DNA from: a phage
NCBI GenBank assembly: GCA_020279385.1
Contig: GCA_020279385.1_4133.1
Strand: one strand, 5' to 3'
DNA: 51,819 nt
Shown here: in pieces, positions 3,861 to 50,987 of the stretch
Numbering within the stretch: the stretch's first letter is position 1
How the letters are laid out: each line of letters starts with the position of its first letter
Translations under genes and position numbers: made by a program
Notes under the pieces: model-generated
Seen by the model: only the letters and a program-made list of their open reading frames with translations
Database searches by the model: none
Told to the model about the DNA's origin: nothing

Positions 3861-4088
3861 TTAAAGAGCACGCCAACTTTGAATATAGAAAGCGTTTTCT
3901 TCCAGTAATTCTTTTAACTGATCTTTATTGTATTTGCGCACCTTACCGCCTGGATGGATACCAATAAGATAGCCGCCTTTGCCCTCGGTGATAGTGATTT
4001 GGCTAATTCCACAAGACTTATCAAGTTTTACAGCCACGCGGTGATGAGCGTCAATAGTTGACACAATGTTTAAAACTTTTGCTTTCAT
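3861..4088 (-). CDS. Hypothetical protein (75 aa)
   Basis: ORF with GAGGAT RBS. Confidence 0.5.
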   Translation of the reverse strand: MKAKVLNIVSTIDAHHRVAVKLDKSCGISQITITEGKGGYLIGIHPGGKVRKYNKDQLKELLEENAFYIQSWRAL

Positions 4089-4196
4089 TTAAATATCCTC
4101 AATTGAAATATGAATGGCGTCGTGCTCTTTTTCCGTCGCCGCCGTAATGGTCATTTGCAGCCGATACCATCCATGCATTTTTGAAAATAAATAGCC

Positions 4197-4409
4197 TCAT
4201 TTCTTATTTTTCATCTTAAATTTATGGCCTGGAACACCAGCACCAATATACCCATCGTTGTATTCCATCAAATAAAGGTGAATACCATTATCTGAAATTA
4301 CATGAGGATCTTCTTTGAGATTTCCCATTAGTGGATATTCTTTTTCGCGCGTAAATTTCCAAATTGAGTTATAAGTTTCTACGCATTTAAGTTTTAATTT
4401 CTTTGTCAT
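4197..4409 (-). CDS. Hypothetical protein (70 aa)
   Basis: ORF coupled to the upstream gene. Confidence 0.5.
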   Translation of the reverse strand: MTKKLKLKCVETYNSIWKFTREKEYPLMGNLKEDPHVISDNGIHLYLMEYNDGYIGAGVPGHKFKMKNKK

Positions 4410-4690
4410 TATGCGATACCAGTTACGTTAAAACTTACAGCCTTTGTTGCGCTAAATACATAAGCATCAACAGCGCCGCCAAATACACGAATTTTACCCT
4501 GGCCGTACTGCGCATTCATATTTCGCCAAACCGTTCTATTAGAGCAGAATGCGCTACCAGTCTTAATAAGCGTATCCATCTCTTTTCTTAGATCGCGATA
4601 GTCCAGCCAGAATCTAAAGGCACGCTGTTTAATTCGCGCCGCCTTGATTTTTTCTCTTGCGCTATTGAAATCATTCTTTTCGTATGCCAT
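4409..4690 (-). CDS. Hypothetical protein (93 aa)
   Basis: ORF with GGAG RBS. Confidence 0.5.
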   Translation of the reverse strand: MAYEKNDFNSAREKIKAARIKQRAFRFWLDYRDLRKEMDTLIKTGSAFCSNRTVWRNMNAQYGQGKIRVFGGAVDAYVFSATKAVSFNVTGIA

Positions 4691-4887
4691 TAAATGATCT
4701 CCATGTATGTTTCAAAGCCATTTAACTTGAACAGGTCGTTTTCACATTTGCGCACGTTCCAAGTTAGCCCTGAGTGGTACGCATCCATATCATCAAGGTC
4801 AATGGTGATTTCAGCACCTTTCTTAAACAAACCTTTTTCGTGAGACTTGTCGCGCTTAACAACTTTAACATCAACCTGATTTTCCAT
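4690..4887 (-). CDS. Hypothetical protein (65 aa)
   Basis: Track ORF begins at GTG 4938; internal ATG at 4887 has GAGGAT RBS. Confidence 0.5.
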   Translation of the reverse strand: MENQVDVKVVKRDKSHEKGLFKKGAEITIDLDDMDAYHSGLTWNVRKCENDLFKLNGFETYMEII

Positions 4888-4942
4888 CTTTAAATCCTCG
4901 CTTGTTGTCGATGGGTGTAATATACCATTCAGGCGCACATCG

Positions 4943-4965
4943 TTTTTAACAAAAAGTGCTATTTA
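4943..4965 (-). promoter_or_regulatory. Conserved intergenic element copy immediately after the stop of 4963-5226
   Basis: ttttaacaaaaagtgctattta read on plus strand. Confidence 0.5.
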
Positions 4966-5226
4966 GTCCAGGAATTCGATTTCACGCTCTCCAGTTAACG
5001 GATCCACAAGCCAGAATCCGAGCGGTTCGCCGTGAACACCGCCATAGAATCCAAGCGCTGTCAGATCTTCACCTTTAACGAATACCAGGTTTCCGCTACG
5101 GCTTACGTGAGAAACGTTAACGATAACCGGAAATGTGCGATCCTTAAATGCAGGCCGCAGGGCGTAACATCCGTTGTTGAGCAAACGTGCTTTGCGCTTA
5201 ACTGGAATAGGTGCATTAATTTTCAT
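4963..5226 (-). CDS. Hypothetical protein (87 aa)
   Basis: ORF with AAGGAG RBS. Confidence 0.55.
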   Translation of the reverse strand: MKINAPIPVKRKARLLNNGCYALRPAFKDRTFPVIVNVSHVSRSGNLVFVKGEDLTALGFYGGVHGEPLGFWLVDPLTGEREIEFLD

Positions 5227-6560: not shown

Positions 6561-6750
6561 AAAATAAAGATTATTTATTTATATATATCTATAATGTTTT
6601 CTTTTTGTTCTCACTGTTACAGTGCTTTTTTTTGGGTGTGGTGTGGTTGTGTGTTGGTATATATGGATAGTTGCGCGCGCGGCGGATTGCATATGTATAT
6701 ATACTTTTTCCGGCGGATTGCGTTAACAGCGTGAACAGAAAAATAACAGC
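6561..6750. repeat. AT/GT-rich non-coding element A, homologous to 36796-36974
   Basis: Shared blocks ttatttatttat, GT-rich tgggtgtggtgtggttgtg, catatgtatatata..ccggcgg, gaacagaaaaataaca. Confidence 0.6.
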
Positions 6751-9057: not shown

Positions 9058-9078
9058 ATAGCACGAATTGTTAAAACT
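9057..9078 (+). promoter_or_regulatory. Conserved intergenic element copy (variant aaatagcacgaattgttaaaac)
   Basis: Followed by hairpin gtggggccat..atggccccac with TATAAT in the loop. Confidence 0.55.
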
Positions 9079-31804: not shown

Positions 31805-31826
31805 AAACAGCACAAATTGTTAAAAC
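31805..31826 (+). promoter_or_regulatory. Divergent copy of the conserved intergenic element upstream of the J-like gene
   Basis: aaacagcacaaattgttaaaac followed by GGAGG RBS. Confidence 0.4.
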
Positions 31827-31840
31827 TGGAGGCCAAAACT

Positions 31841-34800
31841 ATGATAAGCGGCAATAAGGGCGGCTCCTCTAAGCCGTATACGCCAAAGGAGATGGAGGAC
31901 AACCTGATCTCCATCAACAAAATCAAGATCCTCCTGGCGGTTTCAGACGGAGAGGTAGACGGCGAGTTTTCGCTAAAAAATCTCTACCTTGACGACGTGC
32001 CAGTGCAAAACGCAGACGGCTCGCTTAACTATAGCGGTGTTAGTGCTGAGTTCCGGCCAGGCACTCAAACGCAGGACTACATCAAGGGGTTTTCAGACAC
32101 GTCAAGCGAAATCACGATTCAGCGAGATCTGGCGCAGAATAACCCTTACAGCATTGCGGTAACAAACAAATCACTATCTGCTATCAGGATCAAAATCCTG
32201 ATGCCTCAGGGCTACAAGCAGGAGAATAACGGCGATCTGGTTGGTGTATCAGTGCAATACGCGGTTGATATGGCTGTAGACGGCGGCTCGTTCCAGCGAG
32301 TTCTTACTGATACGATCACTGGCAAGACAACAAGCGGCTATGACCGAAGCCAGCGAATCGACCTGCCAGCATTCAACGAGCAGGTGATTTTGCGCGTTAG
32401 CCGAATCACTGCGGACTCTAACACAAGCCGAGTTGTTGACGCGATCAGATTGCAGAGCTATGCGGAGGTTGTTGATGCAAAATTCCGTTACCCTCTGACT
32501 GGTCTTGTTTACGTTGAGTTTGATAGCGAGCTTTTCCCGACTCAGCTACCGAACATTTCTATCAAGAAGAAATGGAAGCTGATCAAGGTTCCTGTTAACT
32601 ACGATCCAGATTCGCGCACCTATAGCGGATCATGGAATGGTTTATTCAAGACGGCGTGGAGCAATAACCCCGCCTGGGTTCTGTATGACCTGATCACCAA
32701 TCAGCGCTACGGACTAGACCAAAGGGAGCTTGGGATTGAAATCGACAAGTGGAGCATCTACGAGGCGGCTCAGTATTGCGATCAGATGGTTCCCGATGGT
32801 AAGGGCGGTTTAGAGCCTCGCTATCTTTGTGATGTGGTTATCCAGAGCCAGATTGAGGCGTTTAACCTTATCCGCGATATTTGCTCAATCTTCCGTGGTA
32901 TGAGCTTTTGGAACGGCGAGAGCCTTTCTATCGTGGTGGATAAGCCGCGTGATCCGTCTTACATTTTCAGTAATGACAACGTGGTAAACGGTGATTTTCA
33001 GTACACCTTTGCGAGCGAGAAAAGCATGTACACACAGTGCAACGTGACTTTCGACGACGAGCAAAACATGTACAGCCAGGATATTGAGGGCGTTTTTGAT
33101 ACTGAGGCCGCTTTGCGTTTTGGTCACAATCCGACAAGCATCACCGCAATCGGATGCACACGACGCAGCGAGGCGAACCGCCGAGGGCGCTGGATTCTCA
33201 AGACCAACCTGCGCAGCACTACGGTAAACTTTGCAACTGGTCTTGAGGGCATGATCCCGACAATCGGAGACGTGATCGCAATCGCGGATAACTTCTGGGC
33301 TAGCAACTTGACGCTTAATCTTTCTGGGCGCGTCATGGAGGTTTCAGGGCTGCAAGTTTTCCTCCCGTTCCGAGTTGATGCGCGGCCTGGTGATTTTATC
33401 CTGATCAACAAGCCGGACGGAAAGCCAGTTAAGCGCACTATTTCACGAGTTAGCGCAGACGGGAAAACTATTGAGTTAAACGTTGGCTTTGGTTTCGACG
33501 TTAAGCCGGACACGGTTTTTGCAATCGACAGGACTGATCTTGCATTGCAGCAGTATGTTGTCACTGGAATCACCAGGGGAGACGATACCGAGCAATTCAC
33601 GTACTCAATAACGGCGGTCGAATACGATCCAAACAAGTACGACGAAATTGATTACGGAGTGAACATTGACGACAGACCAACAAGCATTGTAAACCCTGGC
33701 GTGATGAAAGCGCCTGAGAATGTCCAGGTGTCCTCTTACTCTCGCATTGTTCAGGGGCAGAGCGTAGAGACGATGGTTGTTAGCTGGGATAAGGTCGAAT
33801 ATGCAAGCTTGTACGAGGTGCAATGGAGGAAGGACAATAGCAACTGGCTAAACGTTCCTCAGACTGCAAACAAAGAGGTTAGCGTTGAGGGTATTTACTC
33901 AGGCAACTACTTTGTGAGGGTGCGATCTGTTTCTGCATCCGGCAGCACTTCCCCGTGGTCAAAGATTGCAACCGCAACCCTGACAGGTAAAGTTGGCGAG
34001 CCAGGAGCGCCGATTAATCTTACAGCTTCTGATAATGAAGTTTTTGGCATTCGTGTCAAATGGGGTATGCCGGAAGGGTCAGGAGATACGGCTTACATAG
34101 AGCTTCACCAATCGCCAGATGGAGCGGTGGAAAACTCAAGTTTGCTTACGCTGATCCCGTATCCTCAATATGAGTATTGGCATAGCACGTTACCAGCGGG
34201 GCAAGTTGTATGGTATAGAATCCGCAGCGTTGACAGAATAGGCAACGTTTCCGGCTGGACTGACTTTGTTCGTGGCATGGCGTCAGATGATGTTGACTCT
34301 GTTTTAGGCGACATTCTGGACAAGATTTTTGATACCGAAGCGGGTCAAGAAATCAAAGAGAACGCCATAGACAGTGCAAACAAAATCAAAGACCAGGCGC
34401 AATCAATCATCCAGAACGCATTGGCAAACGATGCTGATGTGAAGTGGACGCGAGTACAAAACGGAAAGCGTAAGGCTGAATATGGTCATGCACTGGAGCT
34501 TATTGCTACCGAAACGGAGGCGCGAGTAACTCAAATCGAAGAGTTAAAGGCGTCAATTGATGAAGATATAGTTTCAAGTATCAAAACCGTTCAGGAAGCG
34601 ATTGCCAACGAATCAGAGACGCGAGCTACTCAAGTGCAGCAACTTGATTCTAAATTTACGAAGGAAATAGACGGCGTAAAACGAGATACGGCTGCAAGCA
34701 TTGGCGAGGTAAGGCAAACCATTACCAATGAATCAGAAGCGCGTGCGCAAGCCGTTCAGCAGCTTGACGCTAAGTTTTCGAAAGAGATTAATGACCTTAA

Positions 34801-35407
34801 CGATGCAATCAAGGTTGATGTTGAGGCGAACATATCAGAAGTAAGACAGGCTATCGCTAATGAGACAGAGGCAAGGGTTCAGGCTGACCAGGCTTTAACA
34901 GCCAAATTCGGAGACGTTGAATCAGCACTAGCCGAAAAACTTGATTCGTGGGCTAACGTTGATTCGGTTGGCGCTAAGTACGCTATGAAATTGGGCCTTA
35001 CTTACAAGGGACAGAAGTACAGCGCAGGAATGATCATGCAGTTGTCGCAATCTTCTCAAGGCTTGATCTCGCAAATCTTGTTTGATGCTAACAGGTTCGC
35101 GATCATGACTAGCTCTACTGGCGGAACGTTTACTTTGCCTTTCGTTGTTGAAAACAACCAGGTTTTCATTAACAGCCTGCTAGTGAAAAACGGGTCCATC
35201 ACAAATGCTATGATCGGTAATTATATTCAGTCGAATAACTTTGTTGCTAATCAGCAGGGGTGGAGGCTGGATAAAAATGGCAGATTTGAGAACTATGGTT
35301 CTACATCTGGAGAAGGGGCCATGAAGTTGACCAACGAAACGATAAGTGTACGGGACGCAAACGGGCGCTTGCGTGTTCAGATTGGTAGGCTTACTGGTAC
35401 GTGGTAA
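31841..35407 (+). CDS. Host specificity / central tail fibre protein J-like
   Basis: 1188 aa after the I-like gene; FN3-like segment; C-terminal coiled-coil repeats. Confidence 0.8.
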   Translation: MISGNKGGSSKPYTPKEMEDNLISINKIKILLAVSDGEVDGEFSLKNLYLDDVPVQNADGSLNYSGVSAEFRPGTQTQDYIKGFSDTSSEITIQRDLAQNNPYSIAVTNKSLSAIRIKILMPQGYKQENNGDLVGVSVQYAVDMAVDGGSFQRVLTDTITGKTTSGYDRSQRIDLPAFNEQVILRVSRITADSNTSRVVDAIRLQSYAEVVDAKFRYPLTGLVYVEFDSELFPTQLPNISIKKKWKLIKVPVNYDPDSRTYSGSWNGLFKTAWSNNPAWVLYDLITNQRYGLDQRELGIEIDKWSIYEAAQYCDQMVPDGKGGLEPRYLCDVVIQSQIEAFNLIRDICSIFRGMSFWNGESLSIVVDKPRDPSYIFSNDNVVNGDFQYTFASEKSMYTQCNVTFDDEQNMYSQDIEGVFDTEAALRFGHNPTSITAIGCTRRSEANRRGRWILKTNLRSTTVNFATGLEGMIPTIGDVIAIADNFWASNLTLNLSGRVMEVSGLQVFLPFRVDARPGDFILINKPDGKPVKRTISRVSADGKTIELNVGFGFDVKPDTVFAIDRTDLALQQYVVTGITRGDDTEQFTYSITAVEYDPNKYDEIDYGVNIDDRPTSIVNPGVMKAPENVQVSSYSRIVQGQSVETMVVSWDKVEYASLYEVQWRKDNSNWLNVPQTANKEVSVEGIYSGNYFVRVRSVSASGSTSPWSKIATATLTGKVGEPGAPINLTASDNEVFGIRVKWGMPEGSGDTAYIELHQSPDGAVENSSLLTLIPYPQYEYWHSTLPAGQVVWYRIRSVDRIGNVSGWTDFVRGMASDDVDSVLGDILDKIFDTEAGQEIKENAIDSANKIKDQAQSIIQNALANDADVKWTRVQNGKRKAEYGHALELIATETEARVTQIEELKASIDEDIVSSIKTVQEAIANESETRATQVQQLDSKFTKEIDGVKRDTAASIGEVRQTITNESEARAQAVQQLDAKFSKEINDLNDAIKVDVEANISEVRQAIANETEARVQADQALTAKFGDVESALAEKLDSWANVDSVGAKYAMKLGLTYKGQKYSAGMIMQLSQSSQGLISQILFDANRFAIMTSSTGGTFTLPFVVENNQVFINSLLVKNGSITNAMIGNYIQSNNFVANQQGWRLDKNGRFENYGSTSGEGAMKLTNETISVRDANGRLRVQIGRLTGTW
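34510..34920 (+). repeat. In-frame tandem repeats (about 42 aa each) in J-like C-terminus
   Basis: ANESETRATQVQQLDSKFTKEI / TNESEARAQAVQQLDAKFSKEI / ANETEARVQADQALTAKFGD. Confidence 0.6.
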
Positions 35408-35450
35408 AATCAAAGCGGGGCGCTTGCCCCGCATTTATGGAGGTTTAATA

Positions 35451-35762
35451 ATGGCTGAATATGGAATATCAACATGGGATGCAAACGGAAAATATAACAA
35501 CTACGGCATCAAGCCATCCGTTGTTGTTGGAATGTTCTCGCTTTCTACAGGCCAGGTTTCTGGCAGTTATACGTTTAATGTTCCTTCTGGATATAAACTA
35601 TCATACGCAATATCCCTTGATGAAGGTAGCAGCGCCGGAGATAGGAGAAAAATCACAATATCAGGCAACAAAATTACTATTTCAAATGCTGGATCATCAA
35701 TAGGTGCTGACATATGGCCTACAACAAAATGCGATGTTGTTGTTTTTTTGGAGACTGCATAA
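35451..35762 (+). CDS. Hypothetical tail-associated protein (103 aa)
   Basis: ATG with GGAGG RBS; N-terminus MAEYG..W.ANG resembles the next gene. Confidence 0.5.
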   Translation: MAEYGISTWDANGKYNNYGIKPSVVVGMFSLSTGQVSGSYTFNVPSGYKLSYAISLDEGSSAGDRRKITISGNKITISNAGSSIGADIWPTTKCDVVVFLETA

Positions 35763-36353
35763 ATGGCACAATACGGAGCAAGTTTAAAATTATCCAATGG
35801 CAATGTTTTCGTTACTCCTGACGCAAGTCCTTTGTGCCTTTATAGGCGAATGACGCTAACGTCAAGTTACCAATCAGTGACAATTCCATCTGGTAAGCCT
35901 GTCATGTATTTTGCTCGTGACGCTGACGGAATATCAATGGCCTTTAGAAATTCAGCAACAGAATTGTTGGTTGGGCCTGGAAATGGAGTAGGTTACATCT
36001 TTACTATTTTTACTCCTTCGCTTCCAAAATATGGAATGGCGATCTGGAATGCTCAAGGTCAACTAATATTAACAAATGAATCAAGGATTCTTACAGATCT
36101 TGTAAAGGTTGGCACCCCTGGAAATAAAGGTGGAATATACATAGATCAGACTCTTACAGGTTCTTATGCGGTTGCGCCACAATTGCTTGGTGCTATTGTT
36201 GGAATGGGATCTGCATCTATTTATGCCGCAACAAAATATAACGGAAGCACTACAAGGATTTATGGCAAGGCAGCCGGACAGCCTCCAGGAGCTCAAGGTT
36301 ATATTAATCACGGAAATATAATTACAGCAATAAAGACTGATATTTACGACTAA
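35763..36353 (+). CDS. Hypothetical tail-associated protein (196 aa)
   Basis: Coupled to the upstream gene; shares the YG..W.A.G motif. Confidence 0.5.
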   Translation: MAQYGASLKLSNGNVFVTPDASPLCLYRRMTLTSSYQSVTIPSGKPVMYFARDADGISMAFRNSATELLVGPGNGVGYIFTIFTPSLPKYGMAIWNAQGQLILTNESRILTDLVKVGTPGNKGGIYIDQTLTGSYAVAPQLLGAIVGMGSASIYAATKYNGSTTRIYGKAAGQPPGAQGYINHGNIITAIKTDIYD

Positions 36354-36388
36354 TTAAAAAGGGGCTTTTGCCCCTTTATTTTTATTTA
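36354..36388. terminator. Bidirectional terminator between convergent genes
   Basis: A-run, ggggcttttgcccc, T-run. Confidence 0.6.
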
Positions 36389-36613
36389 CAGACTGCAATC
36401 AGCGTTTTTAAAGTTATCAATGCTCACCCACTGAAAATTAAATGGATAGCCAGCCTTGACAAGAGTGCGGTCGCCAACTCGTTTTGCCCCAAAGATAGCA
36501 ACTGAATACTGCATTCCGCTATTTTCATAAATAGCCGTGCATTCACGTTTAGGCATATTTGCGCAACCAGTCAGCGCAACGGCTGCGATTAAAACTGCAA
36601 TTAACTTTTTCAT
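36386..36613 (-). CDS. Outer-membrane lipoprotein, candidate Cor-like superinfection exclusion protein
   Basis: MKKLIAVLIAAVALTGC lipobox; small; antisense immediately after tail genes; AAGGAG RBS. Confidence 0.5.
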   Translation of the reverse strand: MKKLIAVLIAAVALTGCANMPKRECTAIYENSGMQYSVAIFGAKRVGDRTLVKAGYPFNFQWVSIDNFKNADCSL

Positions 36614-36667
36614 CTTTTCATCTCCTTTGTTGTTGTTGGTTCAACTATACACGATTTTAAGGCGCGC

Positions 36668-36688
36668 GTTTAGCAAAAAGTGCTACTT
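36668..36688 (-). promoter_or_regulatory. Conserved intergenic element copy upstream of the lipoprotein gene
   Basis: gtttagcaaaaagtgctactt on plus strand. Confidence 0.5.
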
Positions 36689-36795
36689 GTTATTTTTTGT
36701 TTTACGGTGTTATCGAATTTAAGACGGCGTAAATTTAGCTCAAATTTTAGCCAATATAAGAACAATAAATAATCAATAAAATAGATATATACATA

Positions 36796-36974
36796 TAAAA
36801 TCAATAGTTTATTTATTTATGTATGTATATTTGTTTTTTCTTGTTATCTGTGTTTCTTGTGGTTTTGGTTGTTTGTGGTGATTTTTCTTTCTGAGTATCT
36901 GCATGTGCCATCATTCATGTGTATGTATATAATCCGGCGTATCTTAGAGAACAAGGGAACAAGAAAAATAACAC
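36796..36974. repeat. AT/GT-rich non-coding element B, homologous to 6561-6750
   Basis: tttatttatttatgtatgtat, tgtggttttggttgtttgtggtg, catgtgtatgtatataatccggcg, gaacaagaaaaataaca. Confidence 0.6.
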
Positions 36975-37055
36975 ATGTTAATCATTAACTTACGCGTCAG
37001 ATTTGTTTTCTTGCCATCTTAGAACGTTTAGAAAACAGAAAAAACAAAACAACTA

Positions 37056-37083
37056 TTGACTAAATCAACCAAATGGCTACAAT
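37056..37083 (+). promoter_or_regulatory. Sigma70-type promoter for the recombination module
   Basis: TTGACT, 16-nt spacer, TACAAT; spacer shares CCAAAT.GC with the 6823 promoter. Confidence 0.6.
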
Positions 37084-37113
37084 GCACACACAAAGCAACG
37101 AGGAGCATTAAAG

Positions 37114-38169
37114 ATGAGTGATTTTAACGCCTACACTAGCGAAGAAATGAGCAACGAGCTTTATCATGATCCTAACGCGTGGACGGCTGAATACGTCAGC
37201 GGTTCCAGCCTGGCGGAGATTTACAGCACTTGCCCGGCGTACTGGAAGTACAAGCCTCGCCAGGAAACTAAGGCACTTGTTTTCGGTACGCAGTCGCATA
37301 CCAATTTTGAAAGCAAGGAGTTATTCGAAAAAACATATCGCCGCGCACCGTCGCAGGATGACTTTAAAGATCTGATCACAAGCCAAACGGCGTTAGCTGC
37401 AAAGCTGAAATCTTTTGGCCTGAAAGGTACGACTGGTAAGCAGTACCCTGAATTGCTGGAAATGCTGTACAAGTGCGGTGAGGATCTCAATGTATGGTGG
37501 CTTATCGAAATGATGGCAGAATGCCAGGCCGCAGCGGACGGCGTGCAGTTAATCGACGCGAAAGATTATGATGCCTGTGTAGCGATGCGGCGCGTACTTG
37601 AGGCAATACCTGAGCATAATGCTTGCATGAATAGCCCAACCGCGCAGCGTGAAATGTCAATATTCGGGATCATCAATGGCGTAAAAGTTAAAGTGCGCCT
37701 TGATCACGTTGACGTAAACAAGGATGTAAAGGCCACAATCATTAACGGTTACGACGAAAAAGGCCGACCGATTTATGAAGAAGTCATCTATCCAGAAGCT
37801 GTGATTATCACTGACTATAAAACAACGGTTAGCGCAAATCCGGTTGACTTCCAGCGCCTGGCTTACAATCACGGCTATTATCTCAAAATGGCTTTGCAGC
37901 ATGATTTATTTAAAAAGGCGTATCCAGACGAGGAAAGGCCAGTAATCGTGAGATTGCTTGCTCAAGAGAAGAAAGAGCCTTACTTGCCTCTCGCATTCCG
38001 CATGAACATTGAGCAATTGAAGATCGGGCGTATCCAGTACATGAGCGTGATCAACAAGTTCAACGTTTGCCAACAGTTAGATGAATGGCCTTCGTATGCA
38101 AACGGACAACCAGAAATTGATCTTGATACTCCTGATTGGGTTCGTGCTCAATTCAGGCAGTATCTATGA
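37114..38169 (+). CDS. Recombination exonuclease (PD-(D/E)XK, RecE/RecB-like)
   Basis: VIITDYKTT nuclease motif; sits with annealing protein and SSB. Confidence 0.55.
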   Translation: MSDFNAYTSEEMSNELYHDPNAWTAEYVSGSSLAEIYSTCPAYWKYKPRQETKALVFGTQSHTNFESKELFEKTYRRAPSQDDFKDLITSQTALAAKLKSFGLKGTTGKQYPELLEMLYKCGEDLNVWWLIEMMAECQAAADGVQLIDAKDYDACVAMRRVLEAIPEHNACMNSPTAQREMSIFGIINGVKVKVRLDHVDVNKDVKATIINGYDEKGRPIYEEVIYPEAVIITDYKTTVSANPVDFQRLAYNHGYYLKMALQHDLFKKAYPDEERPVIVRLLAQEKKEPYLPLAFRMNIEQLKIGRIQYMSVINKFNVCQQLDEWPSYANGQPEIDLDTPDWVRAQFRQYL

Positions 38170-39970: not shown

Positions 39971-40166
39971 TTTGTTTTAGATACAGCTTCAACTTATTGT
40001 CAACATCAGTAGTTGATGCTTTTCCTGCAACATCCTGTTTTAGTGTCGAAACATCACTTTTCAGCTTCGTTATATCACCAGGAATAGTAGCAACATCCTG
40101 TTTTAGTGTTGAAACATCATTTTTCAGCCTCGTTATATCACTAGGTATAACAGTTACTGTAGCCAT
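39906..40166 (-). CDS. Small fibre-like protein with tandem 21-aa repeats; probably the 5' part of a frameshifted gene
   Basis: AAGGAG RBS; DITRLKNDVSTLKQDVA / DITKLKSDVSTLKQDVA repeats. Confidence 0.5.
   Translation of the reverse strand: MATVTVIPSDITRLKNDVSTLKQDVATIPGDITKLKSDVSTLKQDVAGKASTTDVDNKLKLYLKQNDLSSELDSGRYGGNFYPPDW
40028..40150 (-). repeat. Tandem 63-bp coding repeats
   Basis: caacatcctgttttagtgtcgaaacatcacttttcagcttcgttatatcacc repeated with few changes. Confidence 0.6.
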
Positions 40167-40457: not shown

Positions 40458-42424
40458 TAAACAATTTCCCCCAATTGATGATCTGTTAGCGCCTTGTGCC
40501 ATATACGGAAGTTTCTAACGTGCCCGAAAAGATGGCGTTCGCCTGTACTTGTTTGTCCGCCAATCCTTATAGTGGCCGTCGATCTTATGTATCTCCATTC
40601 CGTTTTTGTTTCGCTTGATATTCTGGCATTACTTACACAGCAATTATTGTAATCACTCTTTACTCTCATTCCCATGATCATCTTTTTTAGTTTCGCATTC
40701 TCGTAAACCCTTCGGTTTGAGTTACCTATATCGCAATAAGGGAATCCGTCATTATCTCCCCCAGCAGACCCAAAAGCAAGAATAATTGCCGCTCCGGTTT
40801 GATGGCCGACTGTATCAAAAACACGCGGCGCTGCGTTTGGCGTTATACTCCAGTTTTTATGAGCTTCCACAAGCACTGTAAAAGGCAAATTGTAAAGGTT
40901 GTTTTTTATTGGCAATGTAACCATATCGCTTGCCCTTGTTGCCGGAGTTCCATCAGTGATAACCAGAGACGAAGCAGATGATCCGTTTTCAACTTGGGCG
41001 GTAGCTATAGTCATAAATTGACCTGCGGTAATATCCTGGCCTGCCCTTGCTATCATCTCAACGCGAGCATACATCTTTATATCTTCTGGTGCTCTATATG
41101 TACCCTGGAATAGTACCCATCCACCTGATTCTTGCTTTACATCATACGTCAAATTAACCCCTCCAGTCACATCAAGAGTGACAAGATCAAGCATCACATC
41201 AGCTATAAATATGTTTTCTTGTCCATCAGGACTGAGTTTGGAGAATCGCAATCTTAACCTAACTGGTGAAGAATATTCCTCGCCGATTCTTGCGCGTATT
41301 GAGATAGTTCCATACTCACCATTCGCAACATCCACTACGCGAGATGTACCAGTTGAAATTGCTGTGATCGGGCCAGTATCTTGACTTTCTTTATAAGTGA
41401 ATTTAGCGGAAGTTATACCAAATTCATCTGTAGAATCAGCTGATACGTCCAGTCTGTTTACGTTTCTATTCCATTTGTTCGGTGAATTGCTATTTATGAA
41501 GTTGTTTGTTCTCTGCCCTTCAATCAGCAATCCATCTCTTTCAAAACGCGGTTCATCAATTGCTGCAACAGTAAGAATACCTGATTTGTTAATGTATGTT
41601 GCAGTTGATGCACGTTTAAATTTGACAATCTTGTCGCCCGGCATCGTGATCTCATCATCACCTATGACAATCTTTTTGTATGACGGCGAGAATCCGGTGA
41701 TCATATCCAGGGAATCATTAAATGGTATCCACACGTCAGGCAGAGGCTGCAATAAATCTTTGTAAGGTTCTTCGGCCTGCTTTGCGTATTCCTCCGCTTG
41801 ATCTCTAGCACTTTCAGCACCTGTCTTTGCGGCATTCGCAGCATCACGCGCAGTTTCAGCGCCTTTTCTTGCAGTTTCAGCGCCAGTCTTTGCGGTATTT
41901 GCAGCGTCACGCGCGGATTCAGCGGCAGCCTTTGCAGTATCAGCACCTTTCTTGCTATTCTCTGCATTTGTTGCGCTTGTCTTTGCGTTATTCTCGCTAG
42001 TTTTAGCTGCCTTCTGGCTTGCTGCGGCTGCGTCAGCATTTGTCTTTACGTCTTCCTGGATCTTCTGTAGCTTATCCCAATCAAAATCCTTGATGATCTC
42101 AATAAATCCAGCAAACTCCGATTCCTTCCCCTGGTAATAACGCAACGTTTCCGCTACGTCTTGCGCAAGACCGTCAACCGTTAACGAGTCATGAAGCAAG
42201 ATCAGGTAATTTGTCTTCTTGACTACCGCGCCGCCAGTAGTAATTGCGCGAATGCTTGTATCGCTAATCACTTCCGTAATCACAGCAGCTTGCAAAGGTT
42301 GAGCAAGAAAGAAAATAGTTGCACCTGGGCGAATCAAGGTTAATTGCTCACGCCATTTTGTACCGTAACCAGTTACATAACCTTGCGCGTCCATAGACGC
42401 TTGGCCTTGTCTGTAAATCGCCAT
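40457..42424 (-). CDS. Tail fibre protein
   Basis: 655 aa from ATG 42424 (AGGAGG RBS); Ala/Thr/Lys-rich repeats; C-terminal lectin-like beta region. Confidence 0.65.
   Translation of the reverse strand: MAIYRQGQASMDAQGYVTGYGTKWREQLTLIRPGATIFFLAQPLQAAVITEVISDTSIRAITTGGAVVKKTNYLILLHDSLTVDGLAQDVAETLRYYQGKESEFAGFIEIIKDFDWDKLQKIQEDVKTNADAAAASQKAAKTSENNAKTSATNAENSKKGADTAKAAAESARDAANTAKTGAETARKGAETARDAANAAKTGAESARDQAEEYAKQAEEPYKDLLQPLPDVWIPFNDSLDMITGFSPSYKKIVIGDDEITMPGDKIVKFKRASTATYINKSGILTVAAIDEPRFERDGLLIEGQRTNNFINSNSPNKWNRNVNRLDVSADSTDEFGITSAKFTYKESQDTGPITAISTGTSRVVDVANGEYGTISIRARIGEEYSSPVRLRLRFSKLSPDGQENIFIADVMLDLVTLDVTGGVNLTYDVKQESGGWVLFQGTYRAPEDIKMYARVEMIARAGQDITAGQFMTIATAQVENGSSASSLVITDGTPATRASDMVTLPIKNNLYNLPFTVLVEAHKNWSITPNAAPRVFDTVGHQTGAAIILAFGSAGGDNDGFPYCDIGNSNRRVYENAKLKKMIMGMRVKSDYNNCCVSNARISSETKTEWRYIRSTATIRIGGQTSTGERHLFGHVRNFRIWHKALTDHQLGEIV
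41773..42013 (-). repeat. Low-complexity tandem repeats in tail fibre gene
   Basis: AKTSENNAKTSATNAENSKKGADTAKAAAESARDAANTAKTGAETARKGAETARDAANAAKTGAESARD. Confidence 0.55.
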
Positions 42425-49888: not shown

Positions 49889-50104
49889 ATGAAAGATTTT
49901 ATTAACGCAGCTACCGCCGGATCTGGCGGTTCATCTATCGCAAGCGCCGCTACAGGGCAGTTAACCATTGCTATTGCCAGCTTTGTTTTAATGGCTGCAT
50001 TCGGTGCATGGGGCGCTTACCTTCGCTGGCGTGATAGTAAAAAATTCCACGAGGCGATCGAAAAAGGTGATATTCAAAAAGCTATTGAGATTAGGGGCAA
50101 GTAA
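49889..50104 (+). CDS. Putative holin
   Basis: 71 aa, one transmembrane helix, charged C-terminus, directly upstream of endolysin. Confidence 0.5.
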
Positions 50105-50595
50105 TGAGCATAAAGAACAGGGTAGCGGCGGCGGCCTTTGGCGTTGCGGTTGCCTTGACTTCTCCACTTCTTGAAGAGATCGAAGGGGTAAGATACAAGC
50201 CATACAAAGATATTGCGGGAGTATGGACGGTTTGCGCAGGAATCACCGGACCCGATGTTATCCTGGGGAAAACGTACACTAAAAAAGAGTGTGATGCTTT
50301 GTTGGCTAAGCATATCAAGGTTGCTAAAAAGGAAGTTGACAAGCAAGTTAAGGTTGACATTCCTGATAGTATGCGTGCAGCAATGTACTCATTCACTTAC
50401 AATGCAGGTGTGGGAGCTTTCAGAAATTCAACAATGCTGAAACTCATCAACCAGGGGAAATTAAACGAGGCTTGCGATCAGCTTTATCGTTGGACTTATT
50501 ACCATAACCCAAAAACAGGAAAGCGCGAGAAGTCTAAAGGCTTACTTAACAGGCGCAAGGTCGAATACAAATATTGCACAATGGATCTGAGATGA
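50104..50595 (+). CDS. Endolysin (T4-lysozyme-like muramidase)
   Basis: [26 protein letters not shown] with catalytic Glu/Asp/Thr arrangement. Confidence 0.8.
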
Positions 50596-50987
50596 TGAAG
50601 AAATTTTTACTTACACCAATCGCAATGGCGGTGATCTTGTCTGGATGTTCAAGCGTTACGCCACTGACCGGATTAATCGGCAGTAAGCCGGAAATCACAG
50701 CGCAGGCTGGCGCGGAGAACGTGAAGCAGACAGTTGGCATTACAGCAAGGCAGGACGACAGCACAAAACAGGAAACCACAATAAAGGAATCTGCGGTTGA
50801 CAAGGTGGACACGTCCAGCAAGAAGGATTTCACAACATCAACCATTCAGGCCAATACCATCAAGGCAGACAAAATTCAGGTCGTGCAGGGTAATAACGGC
50901 AGATGGTACGATCCAGTAATCATATGCGTGGTTGTGTTTCTTGTGCTGATTTGTCTTTACTGGATAGAAAAGAAAAAGGAGGCTTAA
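50592..50987 (+). CDS. Unimolecular spanin (lipoprotein with C-terminal transmembrane helix)
   Basis: N-terminal lipobox LSGCSS and C-terminal hydrophobic helix; start overlaps endolysin stop. Confidence 0.6.

What the first reader, a model, noticed from the sequence alone, without database searches (positions are those of the whole stretch)
36386..36613. Antisense lipoprotein after the tail genes: candidate receptor-blocking superinfection exclusion protein
A 75-aa lipoprotein with a classic lipobox (LTGC) is encoded opposite to the tail module, has its own element copy upstream and a bidirectional terminator downstream. In T1-like and lambdoid phages, small lipoproteins in this position (Cor, Llp) inactivate the phage's own outer-membrane receptor.
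Basis: partly seen in the sequence, partly recalled or inferred. Interest (0 to 1): 0.45.

Follow-up and report, generated by a model that had tools for sequence, protein, structure and literature searches.

The report
Known phage Cor exclusion lipoprotein gene
This small gene is the well-known Cor lipoprotein of T1-like phages, which makes an infected E. coli cell shut off the phage's own FhuA receptor so that further phages cannot attach; it is already annotated in a near-identical published phage.

Summary
A 75-aa ORF lies at 36386-36613 on the minus strand. It has a signal peptide, an LTGC lipobox, an AAGGAG ribosome-binding site, a copy of the phage's repeated promoter-like motif upstream and a symmetric hairpin downstream. 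The interpretation also holds. The protein passes NCBIfam's Cor equivalog model (66.8 bits, cut-off 31) and PHROG 1119 (E 2e-28). It is 100% identical to the protein annotated "Cor superinfection exclusion protein" in Escherichia phage vB_Eco_SLUR29, 56% identical to T1 Cor and 36% to phi80 Cor. dN/dS is 0.03-0.06. It closes the same three-gene cassette (N15 gp22-like, gp23-like, cor) downstream of the J-like tail-tip gene that marks FhuA-dependent phages. The closest relative with a tested receptor, PeterMerian (Bas05), uses FhuA. The best solved-structure match by sequence and by fold is T5 Llp bound to FhuA, and both mature-domain cysteines are conserved. [quoted passage not shown] This is inferred, not shown, for this protein. 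The gene is already known and of low interest. One side observation: compared with BtuB-type relatives, the swapped receptor cassette begins exactly after the lipobox.

The parts
36386..36613 (-). cor coding sequence: 75-aa prolipoprotein, 59-aa mature protein after cleavage before Cys17
   Evidence: ORF. NCBIfam Cor equivalog 66.8 bits against cut-off 31. PHROG 1119 E 1.8e-28. 100% identical to SLUR29 Cor. dN/dS 0.03-0.06.
36563..36613 (-). Signal peptide, codons 1-17, ending in lipobox LTGC (codons 14-17 = 36563-36574). Cys17 is the lipidated residue.
   Evidence: Sequence. Pfam LPAM_1 match over residues 1-18 (19.6 bits, just under the cut-off of 20). Cys17 is invariant in 114 homologues.
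36622..36627 (-). Ribosome-binding site AAGGAG, 8 nt upstream of the ATG
   Evidence: Read. Conserved in FritzSarasin, KarlJaspers and PeterMerian.
36644..36649 (-). -10-like hexamer TATAGT within the invariant block ATCGTGTATAGTT
   Evidence: Invariant across four phages while the 13-nt spacer upstream of it varies.
36669..36685 (-). Copy of the genome-wide 17-nt promoter-associated motif TAGCACTTTTTGCTAAA, oriented with cor
   Evidence: Exact match. 16 copies in the window against 0.03 expected. Same motif / -10 / RBS / ATG layout as the other copies. Conserved upstream of cor in SLUR29 and PeterMerian.
36358..36377 (.). Symmetric G+C-rich hairpin between the convergent 196-aa gene and cor. 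Probable terminator for both.
   Evidence: Terminator-like site on the + strand. Folds on both strands at -14.2 and -13.1 kcal/mol. T1 has an annotated terminator at the equivalent place.
35763..36353 (+). N15 gp23-like / T1 ST31-like gene (196 aa), second gene of the FhuA-type cassette. Candidate receptor-binding component.
   Evidence: 41% identical to T1 ST31, E 4e-45. PHROG 425 E 3.7e-46. The cassette is linked to FhuA use in PMC8594841 and PMC13164509.
35451..35762 (+). N15 gp22-like / T1 ST32-like gene (103 aa), first gene of the FhuA-type cassette
   Evidence: 52% identical to T1 ST32, E 5e-35. PHROG 557 E 4.8e-31.
31817..35407 (+). J-like tail-tip gene to which the cassette is appended. 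The true start codon is uncertain within the first about 25 nt.
   Evidence: ORF. 69% identical to T1 J over 1190 aa. Annotated tspJ in SLUR29.
35431..36559 (.). Exchangeable receptor-specificity module: the two cassette genes, the hairpin and the mature-domain part of cor. Defined by loss of DNA homology to the BtuB-type relative FritzSarasin.
   Evidence: blastn gives 93.6% identity from 36560 rightwards and 75% up to 35430, with nothing between. The alignment shows divergence beginning right after the lipobox Cys codon.

Best explanation
The gene is cor, the superinfection-exclusion lipoprotein of a T1-like lytic coliphage (Drexlerviridae, genus Warwickvirus).

Proposed mechanism:
1. cor is transcribed on its own, antisense to the tail operon, from a promoter that carries the phage's common 17-nt motif. 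That motif otherwise sits mostly in front of early and DNA-metabolism genes.
2. The 75-aa precursor is exported. [quoted passage not shown]
3. The 58-residue domain after the lipidated Cys is a small beta fold, probably clamped by a Cys25-Cys73 disulphide. It binds the periplasmic face and plug of FhuA.
4. FhuA is locked in a state that phage receptor-binding proteins cannot use, and ferrichrome transport is blocked as well.
5. An infected cell, and later its debris, therefore stops adsorbing this phage and other FhuA-dependent phages such as T1, T5 and phi80.

Shown here: the gene is real and under purifying selection. It is a sequence member of the Cor family. It has the lipoprotein signals, the conserved cysteines and the conserved motif. 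It sits in the FhuA-type cassette. Its predicted fold matches Llp best.

Inferred: the timing of expression, the localisation, FhuA as the target, and the allosteric mechanism (by analogy with T5 Llp).
For: Family membership: NF047972 Cor equivalog at 66.8 bits against cut-off 31. PHROG 1119 at E 1.8e-28 over residues 1-74. Identity is 56% to T1 Cor, 36% to phi80 Cor, and 33-34% to N15 and HK75 Cor. A profile search found 303 homologous protein clusters, and where a source named them the name was almost always 'phage exclusion lipoprotein Cor' or 'cor protein'.

Conserved residues: C17, C25, G55 and C73 are invariant, and A54, P57, F58 and V63 nearly so, in 114 sequences.

Public annotation: identical protein annotated as Cor in RefSeq NC_054895.

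Context: J, gp22-like, gp23-like, then cor on the opposite strand, exactly as in T1.

Receptor: the same cassette at 89% DNA identity occurs in PeterMerian/Bas05, whose terminal receptor was determined as FhuA. Other FhuA users with the cassette are BrunoManser, GeorgBuechner and IME18 (PMC8594841). PMC13164509 reports that the complete three-gene cassette occurs only in FhuA users of the BASEL set, and gives an AF3 Cor:FhuA model docked at the periplasmic face with ipTM 0.84.

Link to Llp: the top PDB hit by sequence is T5 Llp, 8a60_B, E 0.038, nearly full length, with Cor Cys25 aligned to Llp Cys26. The AF2 model has pLDDT 84, above 90 across most of the mature domain. In the Foldseek search 8a60_B has the highest probability (1.00) and the highest TM-score (0.61 over the target length; rmsd 2.9 A over 59 columns). 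The Cor segment containing the AGYPF motif aligns with the Llp segment containing Ile39-Trp46, which occupies the place of the FhuA switch helix. The Llp Cys11-Cys58 disulphide corresponds to Cor Cys25 and Cys73.

Promoter: the motif and the -10 block are invariant in four phages while the spacer between them varies.
Against: No experiment exists for this protein, and none found in the searchable literature for a Cor from a lytic Drexlerviridae phage. The functional data come from temperate phages, as cited.

The structural and sequence links to Llp are weak statistically: Foldseek E 0.12, phmmer E 0.038, and hhalign probability 83% over the N-terminal 43 columns only.

The receptor of this exact phage is not known. 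It is inferred from a relative with 89% DNA identity across the cassette.

The left half of the genome is closest to tonnikala. FritzSarasin, which is classified with tonnikala, uses BtuB, so the genome backbone does not predict the receptor.

The terminator is weaker in the cor direction.

The promoter is not a standard sigma-70 match. The scan found none on the minus strand upstream of cor, so timing and regulation are guesses.
Confidence: 0.9

Rival explanations
1. It is a Cor/Llp-type exclusion lipoprotein, but its target is another outer-membrane protein (BtuB, YncD, LptD or FepA) rather than FhuA.
For: Small siphophages carry receptor-matched lipoprotein alleles. BtuB-dependent FritzSarasin and KarlJaspers have an 89-aa lipoprotein in the same position with nearly the same signal peptide, and it still matches the Cor profile at hhalign probability 94%. 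Rtp45 targets LptD (PMC12685063). The left half of the window is most similar to tonnikala, with which the BtuB user FritzSarasin is classified.
Against: The mature domain is 95% identical to that of the FhuA-dependent PeterMerian and 56% to T1 Cor. With the BtuB-type protein it shares only the signal peptide and the first Cys. The two co-inherited cassette genes are the T1/N15 gp22 and gp23 type, which is found only with FhuA users. The BtuB-type cassette has a different gene order and strand.
Confidence: 0.04
2. The molecular action is the same (FhuA inactivation), but the selected benefit in this strictly lytic phage is to stop progeny virions from being wasted on receptor-bearing debris of the lysed cell. 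Excluding competing phages would be secondary.
For: This role is proposed for Llp and for siphophage exclusion lipoproteins generally (PMC12685063; PMC13164509). The phage is lytic: no integrase or repressor was noted in the SLUR29 and tonnikala annotations covering most of the genome.
Against: Nothing in the sequence separates the two benefits, and they are not mutually exclusive. The promoter type is shared with early genes, which fits early protection at least as well.
Confidence: 0.35
3. It is a lysis-related lipoprotein (o-spanin/Rz1-like) or a generic membrane lipoprotein unrelated to receptors.
For: There are weak PHROG matches to Rz-like spanins, E 0.12-0.29, confined to the signal peptide.
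Against: Those matches cover residues 1-24 only. The window has a complete holin / endolysin / unimolecular spanin cassette at 49889-50921, homologous to T1 ST13, ST12 and ST11 (SLUR29 annotation). The gene is neither embedded in nor next to an i-spanin gene. The full-length match is to Cor.
Confidence: 0.01

Closest known systems
Cor of coliphage T1 (ST30, YP_003915) and other Drexlerviridae Cor proteins
   Same: Same 75-aa length and 56% identity with no gaps. Same lipobox, cysteines and AGYPF motif. Same position and antisense orientation after J, ST32 and ST31 and before exonuclease VIII. A hairpin separates it from the convergent gene.
   Different: The promoter differs. T1 and IME18 have a canonical TTGCAA-17-TACAAT upstream of cor, whereas this phage uses the 17-nt TAGCAC...TAAA motif with TATAGT. 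About 44% of residues differ, mostly in the strand and loop region at residues 31-52.
Cor of temperate phages phi80, N15, HK022/HK75 and mEp167 (the functionally studied Cor proteins)
   Same: Same family by HMM. 33-36% identity. Conserved lipobox, two cysteines and the (A)GYPF-x-W/F-x-W-V motif. Same gp22-like and gp23-like partner genes. These phages depend on FhuA (PMC13164509).
   Different: In the temperate phages cor is on the same strand as J and is expressed from the prophage (lysogenic conversion). Here it is antisense, has its own promoter and belongs to a lytic phage. The temperate versions have a 3-residue insertion before the first mature-domain Cys.
Llp of phage T5 (PDB 8A60 chain B, FhuA-Llp complex)
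   Same: A small outer-membrane lipoprotein encoded next to the receptor-binding gene. Similar length. Both mature-domain cysteines lie at equivalent positions. It is the best solved-structure match to the model (TM 0.61, rmsd 2.9 A). The published mechanism, periplasmic binding to the FhuA plug with inward folding of loops EL7 and EL8, is the model for Cor.
   Different: Only about 20-30% identity. The sequence match is below significance (E 0.038; hhalign 83% over the N-terminal half). Llp lacks the AGYPF motif. The partner receptor-binding protein (pb5) is unrelated to the gp22/gp23-like genes. This gene is not a member of the Llp family in the strict sense.
BtuB-type and LptD-type exclusion lipoproteins of small siphophages (FritzSarasin bas04_0025; Rtp45, PDB 9RPS)
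   Same: Same genomic slot. For the BtuB type, a nearly identical promoter, ribosome-binding site and signal peptide. Same logic of one lipoprotein matched to one receptor.
   Different: The mature domain is unrelated at the pairwise level, is longer (89 aa precursor), and is linked to a different receptor and different partner genes.

Membership tests
Cor exclusion lipoprotein (NCBIfam NF047972 / PHROG 1119) | Full-length match to the family profile above the curated cut-off | tested here: met
   NF047972 at 66.8 bits against cut-off 31, E 1.2e-18, residues 1-73 on profile positions 1-76 of 78. PHROG 1119 E 1.8e-28. Pfam has no Cor model, and no Pfam family passes its cut-off.
Cor exclusion lipoprotein (NCBIfam NF047972 / PHROG 1119) | Type II (lipoprotein) signal peptide with a lipobox and an invariant Cys, and no Asp at +2 | tested here: met
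   MKKLIAVLIAAVALTG|C-A-N. Cys17 is invariant and Gly16 at least 90% conserved in 114 homologues.
Cor exclusion lipoprotein (NCBIfam NF047972 / PHROG 1119) | Two conserved cysteines in the mature domain (equivalent to the Llp Cys11-Cys58 disulphide) and the AGYPF...WV motif | tested here: met
   C25 and C73 are invariant. A54, G55, P57, F58 and V63 are invariant or nearly so. The Llp disulphide is reported in PMC9586334. Actual disulphide formation was not tested.
Cor exclusion lipoprotein (NCBIfam NF047972 / PHROG 1119) | Location at the end of the J / gp22-like / gp23-like host-recognition cassette | tested here: met
   The genes at 35451-35762 and 35763-36353 are 52% and 41% identical to T1 ST32 and ST31. 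The same order is seen in T1, IME18, BrunoManser, GeorgBuechner, phi80, N15 and HK75.
Cor exclusion lipoprotein (NCBIfam NF047972 / PHROG 1119) | The carrier phage uses FhuA as its terminal receptor | not testable with these tools
   This is indirect only. PeterMerian/Bas05 has the same cassette at 89% DNA identity and a 95% identical Cor, and is FhuA-dependent.
Cor exclusion lipoprotein (NCBIfam NF047972 / PHROG 1119) | Expression excludes FhuA-dependent phages and inactivates FhuA transport functions | not testable with these tools
   This needs plating and uptake assays. It is reported for temperate-phage Cor proteins (Uc-Mass 2004 and Arguijo-Hernandez 2018, as cited).
T5 Llp family | Significant sequence similarity to Llp | tested here: not met
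   phmmer E 0.038, 17.4 bits. hhalign probability 83% over 43 columns. It is the top hit, but below the usual thresholds.
T5 Llp family | Same fold as Llp in the FhuA-bound crystal structure | tested here: inconclusive
   For 8a60_B, Foldseek gives probability 1.00, TM 0.61 (target-normalised) and 0.51 (query-normalised), and rmsd 2.9 A over 59 columns, but E is 0.12. Tudor and chromo-like small beta barrels score similarly by E-value. Published comparisons reach the same conclusion for other Cor proteins.
o-spanin (Rz1-like lipoprotein) | Encoded within or next to an i-spanin gene in the lysis cassette, with a proline-rich mature part | tested here: not met
   The lysis cassette, with a unimolecular spanin, is at 49889-50921. 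Spanin profile matches cover only the signal peptide.

The most novel reading that the evidence does not exclude
The most novel reading concerns the gene's architecture, not its function. The cor 5' region, meaning the promoter motif, the -10 block, the ribosome-binding site and the signal peptide up to the lipobox, may be a conserved 'socket' shared by FhuA-type and BtuB-type Tempevirinae. The end of J would be the other socket. Recombination between the two sockets would swap the receptor-binding genes and the mature exclusion domain together as one unit, so that a phage never changes receptor without also changing its matching exclusion protein. The breakpoints against FritzSarasin fall at window 35430 and 36560, the latter one codon after the lipidated Cys.
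Probability: 0.55. Interest if true: 0.3.

Novelty: already known. Interest (0 to 1): 0.08.

Why it matters
The gene adds nothing new about Cor itself. It is annotated in RefSeq for a phage with a 100% identical protein. The family has a curated NCBI model. Its link to FhuA and to the Llp mechanism is already in the literature (PMC8594841, PMC9586334, PMC13164509).

Its practical value is predictive. Together with the two upstream genes it marks this phage as FhuA-dependent, which is useful for designing phage cocktails and for explaining cross-resistance to T1, T5 and phi80.

The side observation has modest interest for engineering receptor specificity in small siphophages. It is that the exchangeable receptor module starts exactly after the lipobox and shares its promoter and signal peptide with BtuB-type relatives.

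Tried and rejected
- A single-sequence search of the 5.8-billion protein set returned only 6 close relatives because of its word index. It was repeated with an alignment of distant Cor proteins, which gave 303 clusters.
- Pfam has no Cor model. The only matches are signal-peptide matches below their cut-offs.
- The Foldseek PDB search gave no hit with E below 0.001. Llp ranks second by E-value but first by probability and TM-score, so the fold link is supportive only.
- An Rfam scan of 36200-37300 found nothing near any gathering score, so no known sRNA or riboswitch overlaps the gene or its upstream region.
- The sigma-70 consensus scan found no promoter on the minus strand upstream of cor. 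The promoter call rests on the repeated motif, the -10-like box and their conservation.
- I checked whether herni-type phages, whose Cor is 95% identical, are BtuB users, because the herni relative KarlJaspers is one. They are not comparable at this locus. herni carries the FhuA-type cassette and KarlJaspers a different one.
- Wietzorrek et al. 2006 (PMC1367250) is not held in the library. A literature search for the 17-nt motif found nothing relevant.
- The o-spanin reading was rejected.

Full report
**Observation**

The window has an ATG-initiated ORF of 75 codons at 36386-36613 on the minus strand. Its product is MKKLIAVLIAAVALTGCANMPKRECTAIYENSGMQYSVAIFGAKRVGDRTLVKAGYPFNFQWVSIDNFKNADCSL. 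It begins with a typical lipoprotein signal peptide that ends in the lipobox LTGC. Residue +2 after the Cys is Ala, which by the E. coli Lol sorting rule (established knowledge) predicts transfer to the outer membrane.

An AAGGAG ribosome-binding site lies 8 nt upstream of the ATG, at 36622-36627. The gene is convergent with the tail module. The J-like gene ends at 35407, and two small + strand genes follow at 35451-35762 and 35763-36353.

Between the stop of the 196-aa gene and the stop of the lipoprotein gene lies the hairpin AAAGGGGC-TTTT-GCCCCTTT (36358-36377). It folds on both strands at -14.2 and -13.1 kcal/mol, with z-scores of -3.0 and -3.7. The consensus scan calls it a terminator on the + strand only, because on the minus strand the T-run overlaps the stem. 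"Bidirectional" is therefore reasonable, but weaker in the cor direction.

The "element copy" is real. The 17-nt motif TAGCACTTTTTGYTAAA occurs 16 times in the window against 0.03 expected. One exact copy at 36669-36685 is oriented with the lipoprotein gene. A TATAGT box follows 19 nt downstream, and the ATG lies about 70 nt from the motif. The other copies have the same layout.

The ORF is not a chance ORF. Against PeterMerian it shows 25.5 synonymous and 4.5 non-synonymous differences (dN/dS 0.03). Against herni dN/dS is 0.06.

**What it is**

The protein matches NCBIfam NF047972, "phage exclusion lipoprotein Cor", an equivalog model, over its full length at 66.8 bits against a cut-off of 31. 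It matches PHROG 1119, "Cor superinfection exclusion protein", at E 1.8e-28. Pfam has no model for this family.

The 1.9-kb stretch around the gene is 99.2% identical to Escherichia phage vB_Eco_SLUR29 (Drexlerviridae, Tempevirinae, Warwickvirus). RefSeq annotates the identical protein there as Cor.

Identity to other Cor proteins:
- T1 Cor: 56%, no gaps, E 3e-34.
- phi80 Cor: 36%, E 5e-19.
- N15 and HK75 Cor: 33-34%.

A profile search found 303 homologous clusters. Where a source named them, the name was almost always Cor. In an alignment of 114 of them, C17, C25, G55 and C73 are invariant, and A54, P57, F58 and V63 are nearly so. The window's protein has all of these residues.

**Context**

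The arrangement is J, a 103-aa gene, a 196-aa gene, then cor on the opposite strand, a roughly 500-bp AT-rich spacer, and exonuclease VIII. This is the T1 arrangement. The two small genes are 52% and 41% identical to T1 ST32 and ST31, the N15 gp22 and gp23 types.

Maffei et al. (PMC8594841) showed that allelic variants of this locus downstream of J match the terminal receptor of small siphophages. The KanT1 paper (PMC13164509) reports that within the BASEL collection the complete cassette of Cor plus both upstream genes occurs only in FhuA users.

PeterMerian (Bas05) carries the cassette at 89% DNA identity, with a 95% identical Cor. Its experimentally determined terminal receptor is FhuA. BrunoManser, GeorgBuechner and IME18 carry the same cassette type and are also FhuA users.

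The BtuB users FritzSarasin and KarlJaspers have a different cassette in this slot. It consists of three minus-strand genes, including an 89-aa lipoprotein. That lipoprotein shares only the signal peptide and the first Cys with the window's protein at the pairwise level. The window's allele is therefore the FhuA type.

The o-spanin alternative is excluded. A holin / endolysin / unimolecular-spanin cassette homologous to T1 ST13, ST12 and ST11 lies at 49889-50921, and the spanin profile matches cover only the signal peptide.

**Mechanism**

Functional work on Cor comes from temperate phages. Cor inactivates FhuA functions and excludes FhuA-dependent phages (Uc-Mass 2004, Hernandez-Sanchez 2008 and Arguijo-Hernandez 2018, as cited).

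The molecular picture comes from T5 Llp. The FhuA-Llp crystal structure shows Llp on the periplasmic face. It binds a non-native conformation of the plug and drives loops EL7 and EL8 inward over the binding site of the T5 receptor-binding protein pb5. Llp has a Cys11-Cys58 disulphide that the authors note is shared with Cor proteins (PMC9586334).

The evidence obtained here for that link is as follows:
- The best PDB match by sequence is Llp (8a60_B), E 0.038, nearly full length, with Cor Cys25 aligned to Llp Cys26 (mature Cys11).
- An AlphaFold2 model built on 114 homologues is confident, with mean pLDDT 84 and above 90 across most of the mature domain, and is all-beta.
- In the Foldseek PDB search, 8a60_B has the highest probability (1.00) and the highest TM-score (0.61 target-normalised; rmsd 2.9 A over 59 columns), although its E-value is only 0.12.
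- The Cor segment containing the AGYPF motif aligns with the Llp segment containing Ile39-Trp46, which occupies the place of the FhuA switch helix.

These links are suggestive, not statistically strong. hhalign gives 83% probability over the N-terminal half only. They agree with published comparisons for other Cor proteins.

My best explanation, at confidence 0.9, has these steps:
1. cor is transcribed independently.
2. The product is exported, lipidated and sorted to the outer membrane.
3. It binds FhuA from the periplasm.
4. It locks the receptor so that FhuA-dependent phages cannot adsorb to the infected cell or to its debris.

Localisation, target and allostery are inferred.

**Expression**

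The motif and the block ATCGTGTATAGTT are invariant upstream of the lipoprotein gene in the window, PeterMerian, FritzSarasin and KarlJaspers. The 13-nt spacer between them differs in all four. That is the pattern expected of a functional promoter.

BrunoManser has a diverged copy of the motif. T1 and IME18 instead have a canonical TTGCAA-17-TACAAT. In every case cor has its own promoter.

Elsewhere in the window the motif precedes mostly small early-region ORFs and DNA-metabolism genes, and one copy precedes the terminase gene. By inference cor is expressed with the early or middle genes and not by read-through from the tail operon. No consensus sigma-70 promoter was found there, and the motif was not found in the searchable literature.

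**Side observation**

The window is a mosaic Warwickvirus. The left 25 kb is 97% identical to tonnikala/JLBYU07, and the right half is 92% identical to SLUR29.

Against FritzSarasin, which is BtuB-type and classified with tonnikala, DNA homology of 93.6% runs from exonuclease VIII through the spacer, the promoter, the ribosome-binding site and the signal peptide. It stops at 36560, one codon after the lipidated Cys. It resumes only at 35430, at the end of J.

The exchangeable unit therefore consists of the two cassette genes, the hairpin and the mature exclusion domain. The promoter and signal peptide are common to both receptor types. The BtuB-type lipoprotein still matches the Cor profile over its full length, with both cysteines aligned, at hhalign probability 94%. 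The alleles thus look like one diverged superfamily. This fits the horizontal exchange of receptor-binding loci proposed in PMC8594841 and locates one junction precisely.

**Verdict**

The gene is a known, already annotated member of the Cor family, so novelty is "already known" and interest is low (0.08). The exclusion phenotype and FhuA as the target remain untested for this protein. Simple plating assays would settle both.

Noticed in passing
window, 16 sites: 1583, 2256, 4945, 6250, 21929, 36669 and 51289 (minus strand); 7604, 8067, 10473, 13086, 17304, 42443, 44005, 46494 and 47565 (plus strand). A 17th copy with 3 mismatches is at 9059 (+).: The 17-nt motif TAGCACTTTTTGYTAAA occurs 16 times against 0.03 expected. 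Each copy is oriented with the downstream gene. Most copies lie about 19-22 nt upstream of a -10-like hexamer (CATAAT, TATAGT or TATATT) and 60-85 nt upstream of an ATG. The motif sits too far upstream to be a standard -35 box, so it may be a -35/UP-like element or the binding site of a phage regulator. T1 has 14 copies. It was not found in the searchable literature.
   Followed up: partly
window 35431-36559, compared with L012 (FritzSarasin) 3874-4992: The receptor cassette has been swapped relative to the BtuB-type relative FritzSarasin. Homology ends at the end of J (35430) and resumes at 36560, one codon after the lipobox Cys of cor. Promoter, ribosome-binding site and signal peptide are shared. 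The mature exclusion domain and the two cassette genes are exchanged as a unit.
   Followed up: partly
L012 4777-5046 (-) (FritzSarasin bas04_0025) and L013 4546-4815 (-) (KarlJaspers): The BtuB-dependent relatives encode an 89-aa lipoprotein, annotated as hypothetical, in the cor slot. It has an N-proximal and a C-terminal Cys, and it matches the Cor profile over its full length (hhalign 94%). It is probably the BtuB-specific exclusion protein.
   Followed up: partly
window 36614-37113: The 500-bp spacer between cor and exonuclease VIII is very AT-rich (24-31% GC, against about 44% nearby). It has T/G-rich runs and short repeats that resemble 6568-6611 in the other divergent intergenic region. 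It is 93.6% conserved in FritzSarasin. No Rfam match was found, and its function is unknown. A + strand promoter-like site, TTGACT-16-TACAAT, lies at 37056-37083 in front of exonuclease VIII.
   Followed up: partly
window 1-51819: The window looks like a complete, circularly permuted Warwickvirus genome that is mosaic. Positions 1-25000 are 97% identical to tonnikala/JLBYU07, and 28700-51819 are 92% identical to SLUR29. The cor locus itself is 99.2% identical to SLUR29.
   Followed up: partly
window 41800-42060 and 40027-40149 (minus-strand lateral tail fibre region): There are tandem 63-nt and 21-nt periodic repeats (families D10, D14 and D16 in the repeat search) inside what is probably the lateral tail fibre gene. 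They are presumably a repetitive fibre shaft.
   Followed up: no
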